A stretch of DNA of 64,000 nucleotides, taken from the NCBI GenBank assembly GCA_965153285.1, contig OZ229122.1; one strand, 5' to 3'. Source of the DNA: Podarcis tiliguerta. Taxonomy: Eukaryota. The position numbers are program-made. Positions 53,101 to 62,100 of the stretch are shown here, piece by piece (the stretch's first letter is position 1; each line of letters opens with the position of its first letter).

Positions 53101-56100
53101 GTGTGTTTAGGACTGCAGCATTAACTTGGTTTATCCTCAGAATAAGTGGGAGGGTGTCCTAGCTAGCCATTAGTATTTGTTTTTTCCACTGCAGCCAATT
53201 AGTCAATGGCAGAGGTAGGACTTGAATATAGGCCTCTCACATATTAAGTCAAGTAGACATTGCATTATACAGTCTCTCTGTCCCCATTGTTTTATATTTG
53301 TTGGGCAGGCCCAATCCTGAACCATCTATCCAGAATGGAAGTGAAGAAGAGCAAATATTTGTAAACGTCATCCTCTTATTTTATTTAGAAATTAACTATG
53401 ACTTATAGTTATCAAAGCAATAAATACAGTAATAAAAAACATAATTAAAAATGAGTTTATAAGCAGGTAGCTGAAGGCTTTAGCATGAACCTAAAATGTT
53501 TATTCAAAAGTAACATCTATTAAGTTCAATAGGGTTTACTGCCAACTGTGTGTGTAGGATTATAGCCTCGACCACATGAACATGAAAAGGTCTATGCTAC
53601 ATCTAAAATGAAAATACTGGTTTTGAAATAACTTTCATATTTGCTTTAAGTGCCAATGAGTTTTCCCCCCTTCCTTTGCCAAGTTAGCCAGGCCCACTTT
53701 TACATCTAACGTCAAAATTTGGAATTGGTTCCCATTGGAGAAATCATGATTTCAAATTCAGAACTCATTGAAGCTCTCGAGTTCCCAGTGCAGATTTATC
53801 ACCTGTAAAGTCAGGGCACTGGAAGTTTTGAAAGGAGCTCGAAATGTTGTCAACAACGTCTTGTCAACCTCGTTTTGCGCGAAGGCGCGAGCACCCTCCC
53901 CCATGTAAACAATATTCATTGAAACTTTCCTGACTTTCAAAGTCGCATCCGAAGTATCTGCGAGTCCTAGGGGAAGTGCATGTTTTCACGAGCCAAAGCT
54001 GCCTCTCCTCATTCATAAGTGCATCTTGTTTTGAGCACCTTCGAATAGTCGCGCCAGCCCGCCCAGCGAACAATTGGAAGAATTTTTGAGGAAAGAAAAA
54101 TCGAGTCCTCCCTCCCTCCGTCCGAAAGAGAGAGGGAGACTCCAACCCCCAGCATCCCCCAGGACTCCATTTCCCAGCATGCCCTTCACTCGCGATGGCC
54201 TTTCCCTCGCCCCGCGGGCTCGCAGTCCCGCATCCCGCTCTATCTGATTGTGAGGGAGAAGAGCGCCGTCTTCCGCAATTCTTTTGGCCCGCGGCCTCTC
54301 GCCGGGACGCCGTCCTCCCCCGTGACGCGCCTGTGAGACACTTTGGGTTTGAGTTTCTTTTCTCTTTCTCCACGCACGCACACCCTCCTTCGCGTTACCC
54401 GAGCTCTCGCGAGACTTGAGCGCCGAGGCCGGCGGGTGGAGGGAGCGGTGGGAGGAGGGAGGGGCTGGCCCTGGCGCTTGGTGGTGGCGGCCGCCATTTT
54501 GCCGCGGCGGGTCAGGTCTGGCTCGGCGGGGCCTGGTTAGGGATCAGCATCCGGGTGGGAGGGGTGGGCGACGTGCCGAGGAGCACCGGCGAAGGCCGCG
54601 CAAAGGGAGAAGTCGCGCGGGAGAGGCCTGGGGGCCGCGGATGGCGGCGGATTCTCTCCGGCCGAGGCGGCGGCGCTGGGGCTGAGGCGGCGGCAGGAGG
54701 AGGCGGGGCAGGAGGCGCCTCCCCTCCCTCCTCCCTCCTCCCCCCTCCCACCCAGGTAAGATGGCGGACCGGCCGGGGCTCTACTCCTCTCGCTCACACC
54801 CACCTCCCTGGAGGGGTGCAAGTCTCTGCTTCGAGTCGGGAGGGAAAAGTGAGGAAACAGATAAGAGCGCGCGCGTGTGCCTGGTTGCCGGTGGTCGCGC
54901 GCGCGCGCGGCCTTTTACCTCCCCCGAACCTTCCTCTCTTCCGTCGGTCATTTCCCTCCCCTACCTATAGAGGGCGCACTAATGGAGAGTGGTGGGGCGG
55001 GAAATAAGAGAAAGGAGCCAATGTGGGAGCCGCACGCGCTTACCCAGCCAACGGCCGCTCTCAATGCTGGCCTATTATTACTTCACCTATCGCCCTCCTC
55101 CCCCCCCCGTCACCTCGTTTCCTCGCGCGCCGCGAAACCGACCAACCAACGGCCGCCTACTTTTCAGCGGGTGGGGGAGGGGCGAGCGGGGATTCTCGGG
55201 GGACTAGGGAGGGAGGGCGAGGGAGGGAGGGAGGGGTTTGGGGGAAACCGGGGCGGGGTCAAGGGGTCAAAGGGAAAAGGTGGGAGGGAAAGGGTGACAA
55301 AGGGGTTAAAGGGTGGGGGGGAAATCAAAGGGCATCGAACTTGTGCTGAAAAAGAAAGAAACTAGGCGTCAGAGGGGGAATCGCTTGTGATTAGGGTGCA
55401 ATGAATGAATAAATGCAGGATTGCGGGTACAAGGATTGATTTTTAGCGGGGCGCAAGGGTTCTGAGAAAGGGTGGCAAGTTCAGAGGGTATTAGGGTATC
55501 ATCTGGGACTTGAGCAGTTGCACTGCTCTAGGGTTTGGGTGGCTAGTGATAATACTTGAAAAGTTGGGAGGGGGTTGCAGTTACTTAGCACCATCAAAGT
55601 TTTGCAAGAAACCAGAGCAGAAATAAGTGAAAGGTTAATGTGGTCATGGAGCCTGAGGAGGGGCAGGCTGAAGCTCAGGATGATAGGAAGGGAAAGGAGG
55701 CTGTAGTGAATGAAGAGACCACAGTGGAAGTACCTCCCAATGAGGTAGAGAGAAAGATAACTGGATTGCTTCCAGAGACAGGTGTGGGACAGGGAGAGGC
55801 TAAAGACTCAGAGGCAGAAGAGGAGGCTGAAAAAGAACATGAAGCACCAAGTACTGGAGAGTTGATGGAACCAGACCAGGATACATTTGGACCCTTAGCA
55901 GAACTGGATAGGGGGGTGGCTGAGGATGCAATGGCATTAGGAATGTCTGGGGAAGAGGCTGAGGAAATTATTGAACCAGATCTGAGAAAAGCAGAAGAGT
56001 TGGAGACAGTGATTCTTGAGGAACTTCAGCTTAAGAGTAATAGAGAGAAAGAAGAAGTTGAAGAGTCAAGAGAACCAAATCAGGAGGAAACCAGTGTTTT

Positions 56101-59100: not shown

Positions 59101-62100
59101 TGTGAAGGGAGTGAAGGTGGCTGAAAGTCCCATTGATACTATTCCATTGAGTTCTCTTAAGACTGGTTCCATTCTGGGGCAGGTTGAACAGAGGGCGCTG
59201 AGGCTGGCACAGCATGTGGAGGGTGAGGCTGTGTCAGGATTGGAAGTAGAAGGGCAGGGGCTGGCTGAGAGGCTGAAGCAGGATATGGAGCCAGCAGGGT
59301 CAGGCCAGGGAGGTAGAATTACAAGGTAACTGGGTTAAGTGTGGAGTGAGAGGGAAGGAACAAAAGGTTTGGGAGATAGTGGGTTATTTATGAGCTAGGG
59401 ACAAAATTGAGCTATAGAAGCAGAGAGTTAATAGGACGCTATAGCAATAGAGTTGAGTTGCAAAATCTCAGCTTGCAGGATGAATGGGTTGTAGATCTCT
59501 CTCAAGAATGAAGCCAAGAAGGGAAGTAAACTTCCCTGGGATAATGATATGAGGGTGACGTGCAGAATATTGACGCTTCTGAAGCAAAGGTGGGTACATA
59601 GGAAGCAAAATAAAAATAATTTATTATTTATACTCCACTCATCTAGCCGGGTCGCCCCAGATACTGAGAAGATTTTGGGCTTTGGATACCTAGGCATGGG
59701 AGTGAGTGAAAAGAACACTGCTAGACAACTCAGAATCCGTAAAGTGGATGGGAAAGTGAGATAATTCTAGTGGTTCACCAAACCGCACCCCAAACAGGTT
59801 CCTGCCTCTTTTCATAGGCTTGAATTTGGTAGCTGGTGCGTACAGTAAAACTCTCCACCGCAACCCGTGGGCCGGCTATTCCCATGCTGTCTGCGTAACA
59901 ATAAAAGAGAGACAGGGTTTGATCTACCCTTTGGCAGAGTCGTTCAGGGTCCCAAGAGCAAGTTTGAATGATCCTTACCTAAAGGAATAGGTTGCTGTGC
60001 ATCTACCACACGCGCACACACACAAAATGTTCTCTGGACTAACGGTTCCATCTTTCTTCAGGTGTAGTATTCCCCAGGAAAGCGAAACCCTGGAAGTTCA
60101 GCCTGACAAGCAAGAGGAGTTCGCAGCTCGCGCAGGTACAGGTGAAACTGAATACCATTGGGGAATTGGCAACAGGGTTTTAAGCAGGAACATCAAGCAA
60201 ATCTATATCTTTGGCTGTTTTTCTGAGCTCAGTGTTGGATTTATTTTCTTTTCAAAATGCTTTTTCTGTCACCAACATCTATATTGATGGGCCAGAATTT
60301 ATTATGTACTGGAATCTGGCTTGGCCACAACTAAACTTAATTTGCTTCTTGAGATATGATGGAGGGATATAAAAAGCAGCTCAAAGGAATGAAATAAAAT
60401 TTACAGTATCTGTTCATAGCTCCCCTGGAAATTTTTGGAAAGTCTAGGCATTTAGTACTAAACAGTAGAATATGTATCCAGTGGAGGAAGATAGGGGAAT
60501 CCTCTACTTGTAGGCAGGGTTTACATCTTTTGTGTCTAAATATTAAAGTTTTAAATGCAAACTTTGAGAGAAAACATTTTTTCACATTACCCAAACGTTT
60601 ATTCTGTAACAGAAAATGTTTACTTGTGTGTACAAACTTAGCAACGGAGATTTTCTAATGCTGTTGTGTTTTTGATGGCTACTGTGTTGGATATATTAAT
60701 TTTCTACTGGGTTCTGCCACCAGATCTCTTGTATATCGTAAATTGGGAGAGGCTAACTCCCAGTTTGGGGGGGCCTGATCCGGCTCCCAAGCAAATTTTT
60801 CTGGGGCTCCCCTGATTTTGGCAACAGCAACCAAAAAGGAAAAAAGAACCCCTCCTCCCTTCACTGTAATCATTAATCAAATCATATTTATACTCACATC
60901 TTCTTTTTTGAGAAAAACCTAGTGAGAAATGAGATTTGATCAGCTGGGAACTGTTTGGTTTACATTTATGCTCTTTATTTAATAGCTGCTTTTAAGGTGC
61001 ATTACTTTCCTTCTTTAATTTTTAGTGCTTTACTTTGTGTTAAAGGAAAGTAAAATTGTAGGCAGAAGGCATGCTAATGTCATTTTGACGTTTAATTTCA
61101 CTTCCTCTGAAAATCTTCCTTTAGCTTGTTCTTGAGTGGGTGTCTTTCAGTTCTTTTCAGTCTGGCTCTGATCACAATGCGACTGATTCCTCTTCATGAA
61201 TCTCTAGATAATTCTGAGACAGGCAGTCCCGAGCGCAGGCTGGGCTGCCAAGGAACCCAGGAGCTGGACGGCTCGTCCCAGTGGCTGGCTGACCAGAATG
61301 AGGCCGGTTCCGAGCATGCACTGGAGCAGGAAGCCAGCACTGCAACCGCAAACGAAGCTGTTGGGACGAGAGGCAAAGAGCAAGAGAGAACTAAAATGCA
61401 GAGCAGTCCTCCCCAACAGCAACATGCGCTGCAACCACAGGTAGAGTTGGAGGTGAGGGGAATCCCAGTGTAAGGCCCTGTGTTTTGAGGCCGCTTACTG
61501 GATTACAGTTTTTCAAAGCACTGTAGTTCATTAGGGGTCTTCAGAATGAATTTTGACTGCTTTAGTGAAGTATGTGGATGATCATTGTACTACAAAGAGC
61601 ATCTGTGAGAGTCAGAACAAGGGATGCTCTTCTCTGATGCTCTACCTAGATAAGCTCCCCAGCGCTGTTGGGTTCCTTTAAGGCCACTATAATAATTTTC
61701 TACCCTCGTTTGTCTCCTCTTGTTCATCTCAGACTGCATCGGACAGAATGACAGGCAGTAACCCAGTGTCACCAGCCTCCTCGGGCTCACCTGCCTCAAC
61801 TGGCAGCCTCTCACCACCACATCTCACCCACGACTCCTCGCTGGACAGTCACCCAGGTTTTGATGTTCCCAAGACACAGAACAGAGCCCTTGTGTCGCCC
61901 GGGATGTACACCTCCCCGGACCCTGCAAGCATGTGGGACAAGACACACGCGGAGATTGCTGAGCAGGCCAAGCATGTAAGCCACACATGGTCCAGGGATC
62001 ATTTGGCCCCTTCTGCCCTCTTGAGTTGGGCATGAACATACACAATCTAAGTTAACATTCTGTTTAGTTTGTCCTTCCAAGCTGCAGTTCACAAGGATAC

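What the first reader, a model, noticed from the sequence alone, without database searches (positions are those of the whole stretch)
55646..59329. Bipartite architecture and degenerate repeats of the intronic ORF
Roughly the first 700-780 residues are Glu-dominated and built from decayed repeats: GLGQGEILEVTG, GLGQGEIEVLTG, GVDQREAESM, GVASQGEVEG, GISQGEIGS, GLDQGEAKQ. The remaining C-terminal part is Gly/Arg/Ser-richer and non-repetitive. The pattern suggests old tandem expansion with the frame preserved, reminiscent of purine-rich Glu/Gly exons such as RPGR ORF15. Inference: a long acidic disordered arm on a histone-exchange enzyme could act as a histone sink or chaperone. Caveat: the purine skew extends beyond both ends of the ORF, so composition alone does not prove coding.
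Basis: partly seen in the sequence, partly recalled or inferred. Interest (0 to 1): 0.7.

Follow-up and report, generated by a model that had tools for sequence, protein, structure and literature searches.

The report
Squamate-only acidic gene inside SRCAP
The long open reading frame in the first intron of this lizard's SRCAP chromatin-remodeller gene is a real gene found only in lizards and snakes, encoding a mostly unstructured protein with a long acidic arm and a conserved basic tail, and it is probably made on its own rather than as part of the remodeller.

Summary
Window 55646-59329 (+) is a 1227-codon ORF. Residues 1-780 are 23.6% Glu (net charge -152) and carry 7 copies of a G-[LVI]-x-Q-G-E motif. 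Residues 781-1227 are Gly/Arg/Ser-richer, basic (pI 9.9) and not repetitive.

It is coding. The other two forward frames hold 90 and 93 stops. None of 2000 composition-matched simulations exceeded 226 codons. Twelve squamate protein models share its start (MEPEEG) and a roughly 400-residue C-terminal region with invariant motif islands. No relative was found outside squamates, and no Pfam or PDB match.

The ORF lies on the sense strand between a CpG island and the start-codon exon of an SRCAP-like gene, in the presumed 5'-UTR intron. Ten of 12 models end at the ORF's own stop, so a separate protein is the best reading. It resembles an alternative terminal exon of the RPGR-ORF15 kind.

The stop codon sits inside a good splice-donor consensus (AAG|GTAACT). 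Splicing there through a 74-nt exon stays in frame with the SRCAP ATG, and two database models (Varanus, Naja) are fused in exactly this way.

AlphaFold gave no fold, only isolated helices. Any function, including histone binding, is inference.

The parts
54300..55150 (+). CpG-island-like stretch, presumed shared promoter and non-coding first exon of the SRCAP-like gene. The only strong donor-like site in it is CAG|GTAAGA, with the exon ending at 54755.
   Evidence: GC 0.61-0.70. 21-29 CpG per 250 nt. Donor scan found one site with 8 of 9 consensus positions. The promoter role is inferred; no transcript data were available.
55160..59620 (+). C-poor, purine-rich compositional domain that contains the ORF. 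It begins at an acceptor-like site (...cctacttttcag|CGGG, first base 55168) and fades near an AATAAA at 59609.
   Evidence: C is 0.03-0.18 per 60-nt window inside, against 0.2-0.5 outside. AATAAA positions. Sequence read. That this domain equals one terminal exon is inference.
55646..59329 (+). Coding sequence of 1227 codons plus TAA. The start context is gtcATGG. Predicted protein 133 kDa, pI 4.47.
   Evidence: Ten full-length-range relatives in squamates.
55646..57985 (+). Acidic arm, residues 1-780: E 23.6%, net charge -152, 71% purine. Identity to 7 distant squamates is 0.32-0.37, with 32-47 indel runs.
55781..57658 (+). Seven copies of the motif (E-E-L-x-)G-[LVI]-x-Q-G-E-[IAV]. First codons at 55781, 56495, 56663, 56798, 57023, 57188 and 57632 (residues 46, 284, 340, 385, 460, 515, 663). 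Spacing is irregular at 45-238 residues.
56482..56706 (+). The one clear DNA-level duplicate: 57-nt copies at 56482-56538 and 56650-56706, 75% identical, 168 nt (56 codons) apart.
   Evidence: The same pair is the best protein self-match at lag 56.
58130..59326 (+). Conserved basic C-terminal region, residues 829-1227. Its invariant or near-invariant islands are KGKIIxGLAGLRQGPI, APGLIVT, MGYRIGREGMSC, WLGRPL, SGWTAG, IKERI, and LKDWRDGVMGIAIxRYNAMR.
   Evidence: Alignment A1. Identity to distant squamates is 0.50-0.58, and 0.78 for residues 1101-1150.
58994..59074 (+). Best-predicted structural element: a helix at residues 1117-1143 (ELKDWRDGVMGIAIRRYNAMRRAMW). A second helix covers residues 1176-1193.
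   Evidence: AlphaFold2 on A3: pLDDT 77-84 for this helix, whole-model mean 56.7, pTM 0.22. The same helices appear in the 428-residue model, mean pLDDT 37.7.
59323..59331 (+). Stop codon TAA (59327-59329) embedded in a donor-like site AAG|GTAACT. If used, the exon would end at 59325 in phase 2.
   Evidence: It matches 8 of 9 positions of MAG|GTRAGT.
59609..59614 (+). AATAAA, 280 nt after the stop. Candidate polyadenylation signal of a stand-alone transcript.
   Evidence: Its use is not testable here.
60062..60135 (+). 74-nt exon (ttcttcag|GTGTAG ... CGCAG|gtacag). Its complete codons read CSIPQESETLEVQPDKQEEFAARA. It is present in both fused models.
   Evidence: (53-55% identity to Varanus and Naja).
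61208..61452 (+). Start-codon exon of the SRCAP-like gene. ATG is at 61396 (MQSSPPQQQ...). The 62 codons before it are open and in frame. An alternative acceptor lies at 61161, and there is a further in-frame ATG at 61177.
   Evidence: (80-81% identity to Varanus and Naja over the stretch).
62139..62324 (+). SRCAP-like exon with the start of the HSA domain. Shown only to fix the host gene.
   Evidence: Pfam HSA, E 4.9e-14. 95% identical to the Varanus 'Helicase domino' model.

Best explanation
Window 55646-59329 is a genuine protein-coding exon restricted to squamates. It lies on the sense strand inside the presumed 5'-UTR intron of an SRCAP-like gene. SRCAP is the ATPase that deposits H2A.Z (established knowledge). 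The ORF is 0.9 kb after the only good donor of the CpG island and 2 kb before the SRCAP start codon.

Its main product is a separate protein of 1227 residues with its own conserved start and stop.

Shown: the protein has a Glu-rich, fast-evolving, length-variable N-terminal arm that carries a recurring G-L-x-Q-G-E motif. It also has a length-conserved basic C-terminal region of about 400 residues, made of short invariant islands and a few helices, with no predicted globular fold.

Inferred: the exon is transcribed from the SRCAP promoter as a large alternative terminal exon that ends near the AATAAA at 59609. This is what RPGR does with ORF15. The conserved basic islands and helices would then be the docking sites for a partner, and the polyanionic arm the working part. 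Selection on the arm would act on charge and length rather than on sequence. The arm could be a flexible counter-ion or decoy surface for basic proteins, histones being one candidate, or a substrate arm recruited through the basic tail as in RPGR-ORF15.

The donor-like site that overlaps the stop codon makes a minor read-on isoform joined to SRCAP possible.
For: Coding:
- 0 stops in frame, against 90 and 93 in the other forward frames.
- 0 of 2000 simulations exceeded 226 codons.
- 10 of 7998 scored candidates matched at E<=0.001, and all 10 carry squamate names.
- The start (MEPEEG) and the C-terminal region lie in one frame in all of them, so every indel between them kept the frame.
- The Micrurus record lists no genome contig. 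I recall it as transcriptome-derived.

Restricted distribution:
- phmmer of the C-terminal 428 residues against 1.84 billion representatives gave 6 hits. Five are the squamate proteins and one is an unnamed 84-residue fragment of the same tail.
- No Pfam family, no PDB match, no Atlas hit.

Stand-alone product:
- 10 of 12 models end at or near the ORF's stop.
- A search of proteins of 2149-5000 aa found only 2 fused models among 5134 candidates. Neither has a LOC-style pipeline name.
- An AATAAA lies 280 nt after the stop, where the compositional domain fades.

Architecture kept in all 11 relatives.

Disorder: AlphaFold2 mean pLDDT 37.7 (428 residues) and 56.7 (last 147 residues), with isolated helices only.

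Host gene: Pfam HSA, and exon-by-exon tblastn with the Varanus model at 83-96% identity.
Against: - The stop codon lies inside AAG|GTAACT, 8 of 9 donor consensus positions. That is as good as the SRCAP donors in the window.
- The route 59325 -> 60062-60135 -> 61208 is in frame with the SRCAP ATG, and so is 59325 -> 61161.
- The 24 + 62 codons on that route are open, and their translation is 53-81% identical to the Varanus and Naja fused models, with no length difference.
- 10 of 14 sequences have Arg at the homologous last position. This fits a conserved AG|GT as well as a conserved tail.
- I saw no transcript data for any species. The 5' end, the poly(A) site and the promoter sharing are therefore inferred.
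- With only 11 sequences, AlphaFold's failure to fold the C-terminal region is weak evidence for disorder.
- The Phrynocephalus model departs from the family about 70 residues before the end in a way that looks like a frame shift, and the Anolis tail differs.
- No evidence of any kind bears on the partner or on histone binding.
Confidence: 0.6

Rival explanations
1. The ORF is an alternative 5' coding exon of SRCAP. Translation starts at 55646. The donor at 59325|59326 is used, and the message continues through the 74-nt exon and the stretch before the usual ATG. This gives an SRCAP of about 4400 residues whose N-terminus is the acidic arm plus basic region. That is the reader's 'arm on a histone-exchange enzyme'. 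The stand-alone models would then reflect retained-intron RNA.
For: - Donor-like site over the stop, 8 of 9 consensus positions.
- The spliced route is in frame.
- The 86 complete codons on the route (24 + 62) are open. Across all three phases of those stretches there are only 7 stop trinucleotides, all off frame.
- Varanus (4446 aa, with HSA, SNF2 and helicase Pfam domains) and Naja (3830 aa) models are joined at exactly these exon borders.
- The stretch before the SRCAP ATG is as conserved in translation (80-81%) as the neighbouring SRCAP exon (83%).
- A phase-2 exon followed by GTAA reads as an immediate stop when unspliced. The ORF ending exactly at a donor is what this model predicts.
Against: - 10 of 12 models stop at the ORF's own stop. 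None of the LOC-named pipeline models appears among proteins above 2149 aa.
- The two fused models show other signs of ab initio read-through. Naja skips SRCAP exons after VELEVR, and both read past the 61440 donor.
- Synonymous-site composition differs sharply. C at four-fold sites is 5-8% in the ORF, against 28-39% in SRCAP and FBRS-like exons and 39% in the stretch before the ATG.
- The in-frame ATG at 61177 could by itself explain the open frame before 61396.
- The frame match has a chance probability of about 1 in 3 per junction.
Confidence: 0.27
2. The frame is open only because of composition or because it is a recent accident. It is an untranslated purine-rich intronic tract that prediction pipelines annotate by default.
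For: - The purine and GC skew extends past both ends of the ORF.
- The acidic arm is poorly conserved, at 0.32-0.37 identity to distant species.
- No domain, no fold.
Against: - At this composition stops are not rare. The off-frame rate is 7.5% per codon, and the longest simulated ORF is 226 codons, against 1232 observed.
- The frame, the start and the C-terminal islands are kept in lacertids, iguanians, a varanid and snakes.
- Residues 1101-1150 are 78% identical to the 7 distant species.
Confidence: 0.02
3. The tract derives from a satellite or a transposon.
For: Recurring motif copies and one 57-nt duplicate.
Against: - TRF finds no array inside the ORF.
- No transposase, reverse-transcriptase or integrase family, nor any other Pfam family.
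- No second copy anywhere in the 64 kb (tblastn).
- The locus is the same in Podarcis, Varanus and Naja, since their models are joined to SRCAP.
- No repeat library of vertebrate elements was available, so a very old derived origin was not tested.
Confidence: 0.01

Closest known systems
RPGR exon ORF15 (vertebrate retinitis pigmentosa GTPase regulator)
   Same: Both are very large purine-rich exons. Each encodes an acidic Glu-rich repetitive region of variable length between species, followed by a conserved basic C-terminal domain. In RPGR the exon is made by running past a donor into the intron, and the basic domain recruits TTLL5 to glutamylate the acidic repeats (passages of PMC6770968). 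Here the ORF's stop lies on a donor-like site, and the acidic-then-basic layout is kept in all relatives.
   Different: - No sequence relationship was found.
- The host gene is SRCAP-like, not RPGR.
- The ORF has its own ATG instead of continuing upstream coding exons.
- Purines are 71% and Glu+Gly 34% here, against 86-89% and 60-67% in ORF15 (ORF15 figures from the table text of PMC6770968).
- There is no GEEEG motif (0 copies). That motif is recalled, not read.
SRCAP / Swr1 / Domino family ATPase
   Same: Same locus and strand, and probably the same promoter. A splice-compatible frame exists, and two database models fuse the ORF to it.
   Different: The ORF carries none of the family's domains. 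It lies before the start codon and ends in a stop that 10 of 12 models respect.
Acidic histone chaperones and acidic arms of chromatin proteins (nucleoplasmin, NAP/SET, ANP32E, Chz1, YL1; named from general knowledge)
   Same: Large net negative charge (-152) and predicted disorder.
   Different: No chaperone domain. No long D/E tract: the longest run is 3. Histone binding is untested.
Taxon-restricted ('orphan') intrinsically disordered proteins encoded by genes nested in introns of other genes
   Same: No relatives outside one order, no domain, low-complexity composition, position inside a host intron.
   Different: It is unusually long at 133 kDa. It is old enough to be shared by lacertids, iguanians, a varanid and snakes. 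It has a strongly conserved 400-residue part.
AKAP12 and titin (names that pipelines gave to the Anolis sagrei and Thamnophis relatives)
   Same: Only the Glu-rich composition.
   Different: No Pfam family of either protein, nor any other, is matched by any of the 11 members scanned. I take the names to be composition-driven.

Membership tests
RPGR-ORF15-type exon | Sequence relationship to the RPGR basic domain, and RCC1-like coding exons upstream | tested here: not met
   The phmmer search of 1.84 billion representatives found only 6 proteins, none of them RPGR. The host exons are SRCAP-like.
RPGR-ORF15-type exon | Acidic repetitive region followed by a conserved basic C-terminal domain, with the acidic part variable in length between species | tested here: met
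   pI 4.1-4.4 and 373-955 residues for the acidic part, against pI 9.6-10.4 and 358-408 residues for the basic part, in 11 relatives. Identity 0.32-0.37 against 0.50-0.58.
RPGR-ORF15-type exon | Purine content above about 80% and Glu+Gly at 60% or more (figures from PMC6770968) | tested here: not met
   71% purine in the acidic part. Glu+Gly 34%.
RPGR-ORF15-type exon | Terminal exon made by running past a splice donor into the intron | tested here: inconclusive
   The stop lies on AAG|GTAACT and an AATAAA follows 280 nt later. No transcripts were available.
SRCAP/Swr1 ATPase (is the ORF part of that polypeptide?) | HSA and SNF2 ATPase domains in the same protein | tested here: not met
   No Pfam family in the ORF. 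The HSA domain starts in a separate exon at 62139. 10 of 12 models end before it.
SRCAP/Swr1 ATPase (is the ORF part of that polypeptide?) | A reading frame that can be continued by splicing into the SRCAP coding exons | tested here: met
   3680 + 74 + 188 nt is 0 mod 3, and 3680 + 235 nt is 0 mod 3. The intervening codons are open. The Varanus and Naja models are joined so.
SRCAP/Swr1 ATPase (is the ORF part of that polypeptide?) | Transcripts or peptides that span the junction | not testable with these tools
Acidic histone chaperone | A recognised chaperone domain (NAP, nucleoplasmin, YL1, CHZ and the like) | tested here: not met
   0 Pfam families at E<=1 for the whole protein, and at E<=10 for 11 members.
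Acidic histone chaperone | Direct binding of histones | not testable with these tools
   Needs pull-downs. No prediction job was run because nothing singles out a partner.
Satellite or transposon-derived tract | Tandem array at DNA level, or transposon protein domains, or multiple copies | tested here: not met
   TRF found none inside the ORF. There is one 57-nt pair only. No Pfam hit. No second copy in the window. No vertebrate repeat library was available.

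The most novel reading that the evidence does not exclude
The codons AGG-TAA at the end of the ORF act as a dual-use switch kept throughout squamates. Left unspliced, they end a 133-kDa acidic protein. Spliced at AG|GT, they place the whole ORF, through a 25-codon exon and 62 conserved codons before the usual ATG, onto the N-terminus of SRCAP. Lizards and snakes would then have an H2A.Z-exchange ATPase isoform of about 4400 residues carrying a 1200-residue polyanionic arm that no other vertebrate has.
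Probability: 0.27. Interest if true: 0.7.

Novelty: new variant of a known kind. Interest (0 to 1): 0.45.

Why it matters
If the main reading is right, squamates carry an old, order-specific gene of 133 kDa. It shares the transcription unit of a core chromatin remodeller, and nobody appears to have studied it. Full-text searches for five of its LOC identifiers and for SRCAP with 'squamate' found 0 papers. Supplementary tables, where such identifiers usually sit, could not be seen.

It would be a second, independent example of the ORF15 design: a purine-rich acidic repeat arm plus a conserved basic tail in a giant exon. That gives a comparative handle on why this design arises and how such exons are kept in frame.

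If the fused reading is right, it changes the known domain make-up of SRCAP in a whole vertebrate order. It would also make the idea of an acidic arm acting on histones directly testable.

Either way the practical lesson for annotation is that the two kinds of model now in the databases cannot both be the main product.

Tried and rejected
- Pfam on the ORF and on 11 relatives at E<=10: nothing.
- PDB by sequence and by profile: only chance-level rows, E 0.36-0.69.
- ESM Atlas with residues 800-1227: no usable hit.
- AlphaFold2 twice: no confident fold. I did not run fold search, because a low-confidence model gives meaningless matches.
- TRF: no array in the ORF.
- Rfam on the whole window: 0 matches.
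- The third protein search used the stretch before the SRCAP ATG. It was meant to show how SRCAP models of other species begin. It searched only proteins of 164-2000 aa and found nothing, so it says nothing about SRCAP-length proteins.
- The listing of cluster members could not be made because the database is switched off. The isoforms and sources of the hits stayed unchecked.
- A literature search for SRCAP with reptile words was badly framed: 21,715 papers, and none of the 12 listed holds 'SRCAP'.
- Complex prediction was not used. I claim no specific binding partner.
- dN/dS and nucleotide-level indel counts could not be done.
- Rejected: naming it AKAP12-like or titin-like, because no family was matched.
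- Rejected: treating the best single repeat match as significant on its own (score 46 against a shuffled maximum of 47).

Full report
**What is there**

The window holds no N. It is lacertid, not human: its ORF product is 97% identical to a Podarcis lilfordi protein.

From 55631 to 59329 one forward frame is open for 1232 codons. The first ATG is at 55646, which gives 1227 residues, and the stop is TAA at 59327-59329.

Residues 1-780 are 23.6% Glu, with pI 4.12 and net charge -152. Residues 781-1227 are richest in Gly, Leu, Arg and Ser, with pI 9.93.

**Is it more than chance?**

Yes for the open frame.
- The other two forward frames of the same stretch hold 90 and 93 stops.
- Stop trinucleotides are not rare at this composition: 7.5% per off-frame codon.
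- The longest ORF in 2000 first-order Markov simulations of the stretch was 226 codons.

Yes, more modestly, for the repeats.
- The motif pattern occurs 7 times, against a mean of 0.012 and a maximum of 1 in 5000 shuffles. The pattern is post hoc.
- Overall self-similarity of the acidic part exceeds all 100 shuffles, 316 against a maximum of 291.
- The best single pair (lag 56) does not exceed the shuffled maximum, 46 against 47.
- TRF finds no DNA array.
- Only one 57-nt pair, 75% identical and 168 nt apart, is seen at DNA level.
- Beyond a core of about 12 residues the units barely align.

The C-terminal part shows no internal repetition.

**Relatives**

A word-seeded search returned 10 proteins at E<=0.001 among 7998 scored candidates. 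All carry squamate names:
- Podarcis lilfordi (97%), P. muralis (92%), Zootoca vivipara (84%)
- Candoia aspera, Anolis sagrei, Notechis, Micrurus, Phrynocephalus, Pseudonaja, Thamnophis (35-47% over 48-100% of the query)

Candoia is a snake. For the other genera I rely on general knowledge.

The alignment (A1) shows three things:
- a shared start, MEPEEG;
- a poorly conserved acidic part with many indels;
- a C-terminal region from about residue 829 with invariant islands: KGKIIxGLAGLRQGPI, APGLIVT, MGYRIGREGMSC, WLGRPL, SGWTAG, IKERI, LKDWRDGVMGIAIxRYNAMR.

Identity to the seven distant species is 0.32-0.37 in residues 1-780 and 0.50-0.58 in residues 781-1227. It reaches 0.78 for residues 1101-1150.

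Against the close species, indels fall almost entirely in the acidic part:
- P. lilfordi: 2 runs
- P. muralis: 6 runs
- Zootoca: 5 runs, plus one single-residue indel in the C part

One of these is a 36-residue insertion made of three copies of a 10-residue unit. Start and tail share one frame in every species, so all these changes kept the frame. Predicted proteins are in frame by construction, though, so this is weaker than counting indels in DNA.

The acidic-arm, basic-tail split is kept in all 11 relatives. Arm length varies from 373 to 955 residues, while the tail stays at 358-408.

An exhaustive phmmer search with the last 428 residues against 1.84 billion representatives found 6 proteins. 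Five are the squamate ones and one is an unnamed 84-residue fragment of the same tail. Representatives stand for clusters at 50% identity, and only predicted proteins are held. So this shows no annotated relative outside squamates. It does not show absence from unannotated DNA, and it does not say whether geckos or skinks have the gene.

**No known family, no fold**

- Pfam gave nothing for the ORF at E<=1, nor for any of 11 members at E<=10.
- PDB sequence and profile searches gave only chance-level rows.
- The ESM Atlas gave no usable hit.
- AlphaFold2 with the 11-row alignment gave mean pLDDT 37.7 for the last 428 residues, and 56.7 with pTM 0.22 for the last 147.
- Only isolated helices were predicted. 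The best is residues 1117-1143 (pLDDT 77-84) and the next is 1176-1193.

The alignment is shallow, so this is weak evidence. As far as it goes, it points to a disordered region with conserved binding elements rather than a globular domain.

**Where it sits**

I ran Pfam on the 266 other stop-to-stop frames of 75 residues or more in the window. It found:
- a C2H2 zinc-finger exon at 8735-9700 (-);
- a Tantalus-like stretch at 24346-24654 (+);
- four Auts2-family exons at 43511-46910 (+);
- an HSA domain in the frame 62025-62426 (+).

As I recall, this gene order matches the ZNF / PRR14 / FBRS / SRCAP neighbourhood of mammals.

Reading the DNA and comparing exon by exon with the Varanus 'Helicase domino' model places the features as follows:
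- SRCAP-like start codon at 61396 (MQSSPPQQQ...);
- further exons at 61733-61975, at 62139-62324 (95% identical), and beyond;
- a CpG-island-like stretch at 54300-55150, which contains one strong donor-like site, CAG|GTAAGA, ending at 54755.

The ORF therefore lies on the sense strand between the presumed non-coding first exon and the start-codon exon of SRCAP. 'Intronic' is right, with the proviso that the transcription start is inferred from the CpG island only.

**Separate protein or arm of SRCAP?**

For a separate protein:
- The ORF has its own conserved ATG in good context (gtcATGG), preceded by an in-frame stop five codons upstream.
- It has a stop that 10 of 12 models respect.
- A search restricted to proteins of 2149-5000 aa found only 2 fused models among 5134 candidates, Varanus komodoensis (4446 aa) and Naja naja (3830 aa). 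No LOC-named pipeline model was among them.

For a link to SRCAP:
- The stop lies inside AAG|GTAACT, which matches 8 of 9 donor consensus positions.
- An exon ending at 59325 (phase 2), then a 74-nt exon at 60062-60135, then the acceptor at 61208, is in frame with the SRCAP ATG. So is a direct join to the acceptor at 61161.
- The 24 and 62 complete codons on the way are open.
- Both fused models use exactly these borders.
- Translated, the 74-nt exon is 53-55% identical to Varanus and Naja, and the stretch before the ATG is 80-81% identical, with no length change.

Weakening the link:
- The two fused models look like ab initio read-through elsewhere.
- An in-frame ATG at 61177 could on its own explain the open frame before 61396.
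- Synonymous composition differs sharply. C at four-fold sites is 5% and 8% in the two halves of the ORF, against 28-39% in neighbouring SRCAP and FBRS-like exons and 39% in the pre-ATG stretch.

The frames were derived by arithmetic, and each exon was translated and compared on its own.

I put the stand-alone product at about 0.6 and a functional fused isoform at about 0.27. The two are not mutually exclusive.

**The compositional domain**

The C-poor, purine-rich state is not confined to the ORF.
- It switches on at about 55160, right after a pyrimidine tract and an acceptor-like cag (first base 55168).
- It fades at 59620-59760, next to an AATAAA at 59609.

That outline is what one large terminal exon with about 480 nt of 5' UTR and about 300 nt of 3' UTR would look like. 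This is inference. Four short upstream ATGs (55401, 55405, 55413, 55638) lie in that putative leader.

**How it most likely works**

Shown: a real coding exon, restricted to squamates as far as annotated proteins go, with a charge-conserved, sequence-labile acidic arm and a sequence-conserved basic tail made of short islands and helices.

Inferred:
- It is made as an alternative terminal exon of the SRCAP transcription unit.
- The tail docks on a partner.
- The arm is the effector or the substrate.

The closest working analogy is RPGR-ORF15. There a purine-rich exon is made by running into an intron and encodes Glu-Gly repeats plus a conserved basic domain. That domain recruits TTLL5 to glutamylate the repeats (passages of PMC6770968).

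Membership in that family fails:
- no sequence relationship;
- 71% rather than 86-89% purine;
- Glu+Gly 34% rather than 60-67%;
- no GEEEG motif (the motif is recalled).

The histone-sink idea remains a guess. There is no chaperone domain, the longest D/E run is 3 residues, and nothing here tests binding.

**Novelty**

The protein is already in the databases as 'uncharacterized' or under composition-driven names. Full-text searches found no paper for five of its LOC identifiers or for SRCAP with 'squamate'. Supplements were closed, and another search was too broad to be informative.

I rate it a new variant of a known kind: an ORF15-like giant acidic exon in a different host gene, with its own start. 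Interest is moderate. It would be higher if the stop/donor overlap proves to be a working switch.

**Left open**

- dN/dS and DNA-level indel counts
- presence in geckos, skinks, tuatara and non-squamates
- transcript ends and junctions
- the isoforms behind the 'X2' names (could not be made)
- how SRCAP models of other squamates begin (one search did not reach proteins of that length)

Noticed in passing
window 61111-61395 (+): The SRCAP frame is open for 95 codons before the usual ATG (61396). Its last 62 codons (NSETGSPERRLGCQGTQELDGSSQWLADQNEAGS...) are 80-81% identical in translation to the Varanus and Naja models, and the first 33 are almost invariant. There is a further in-frame ATG at 61177. 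Squamate SRCAP may start earlier than annotated, or this may be a strongly conserved leader.
   Followed up: partly
window 55646-59326 (+), compared with 61210-62324 and 46587-48160: C is nearly absent from four-fold degenerate sites of the ORF: 5% in codons 1-780 and 8% in codons 781-1227. The figure is 28-39% in neighbouring SRCAP-like and FBRS-like exons. The bias is strand-specific and spans the whole presumed exon. The cause is unexplained. Candidates are selection for purine-rich splicing enhancers, avoidance of pyrimidine tracts in a giant exon, or a mutational asymmetry downstream of the promoter.
   Followed up: partly
window 55190-55335 (+): A G-rich tract, (AGGG)n/(GGGAGGG)n with G at 48-58%, lies at the start of the purine-rich domain, just after a C-rich tract at 55070-55160. 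From memory, such G runs on the non-template strand downstream of a CpG-island promoter are associated with G-quadruplex or R-loop formation.
   Followed up: no
window 8735-9700 (-), 24346-24654 (+), 43511-46910 (+): A C2H2 zinc-finger exon, a Tantalus-like (PRR14-type) stretch and Auts2-family (FBRS-type) exons lie upstream of the SRCAP-like gene. As I recall, this gene order matches the mammalian SRCAP neighbourhood.
   Followed up: no
P0009 (Phrynocephalus) last ~70 residues; P0006 (Anolis sagrei) last ~10 residues: The Phrynocephalus model leaves the family consensus after RYNAMR in a way that looks like a frame shift. The Anolis tail ends differently (…RIQREP). These could be assembly or prediction errors or real changes. 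They cannot be checked without DNA.
   Followed up: no
window 61440-61454 (+): There are two candidate donors for the SRCAP start-codon exon: CAG|GTAGAG (exon end 61440) and GAG|GTGAGG (exon end 61452). Both are phase 0. The Varanus model uses the second, adding VELE.
   Followed up: no
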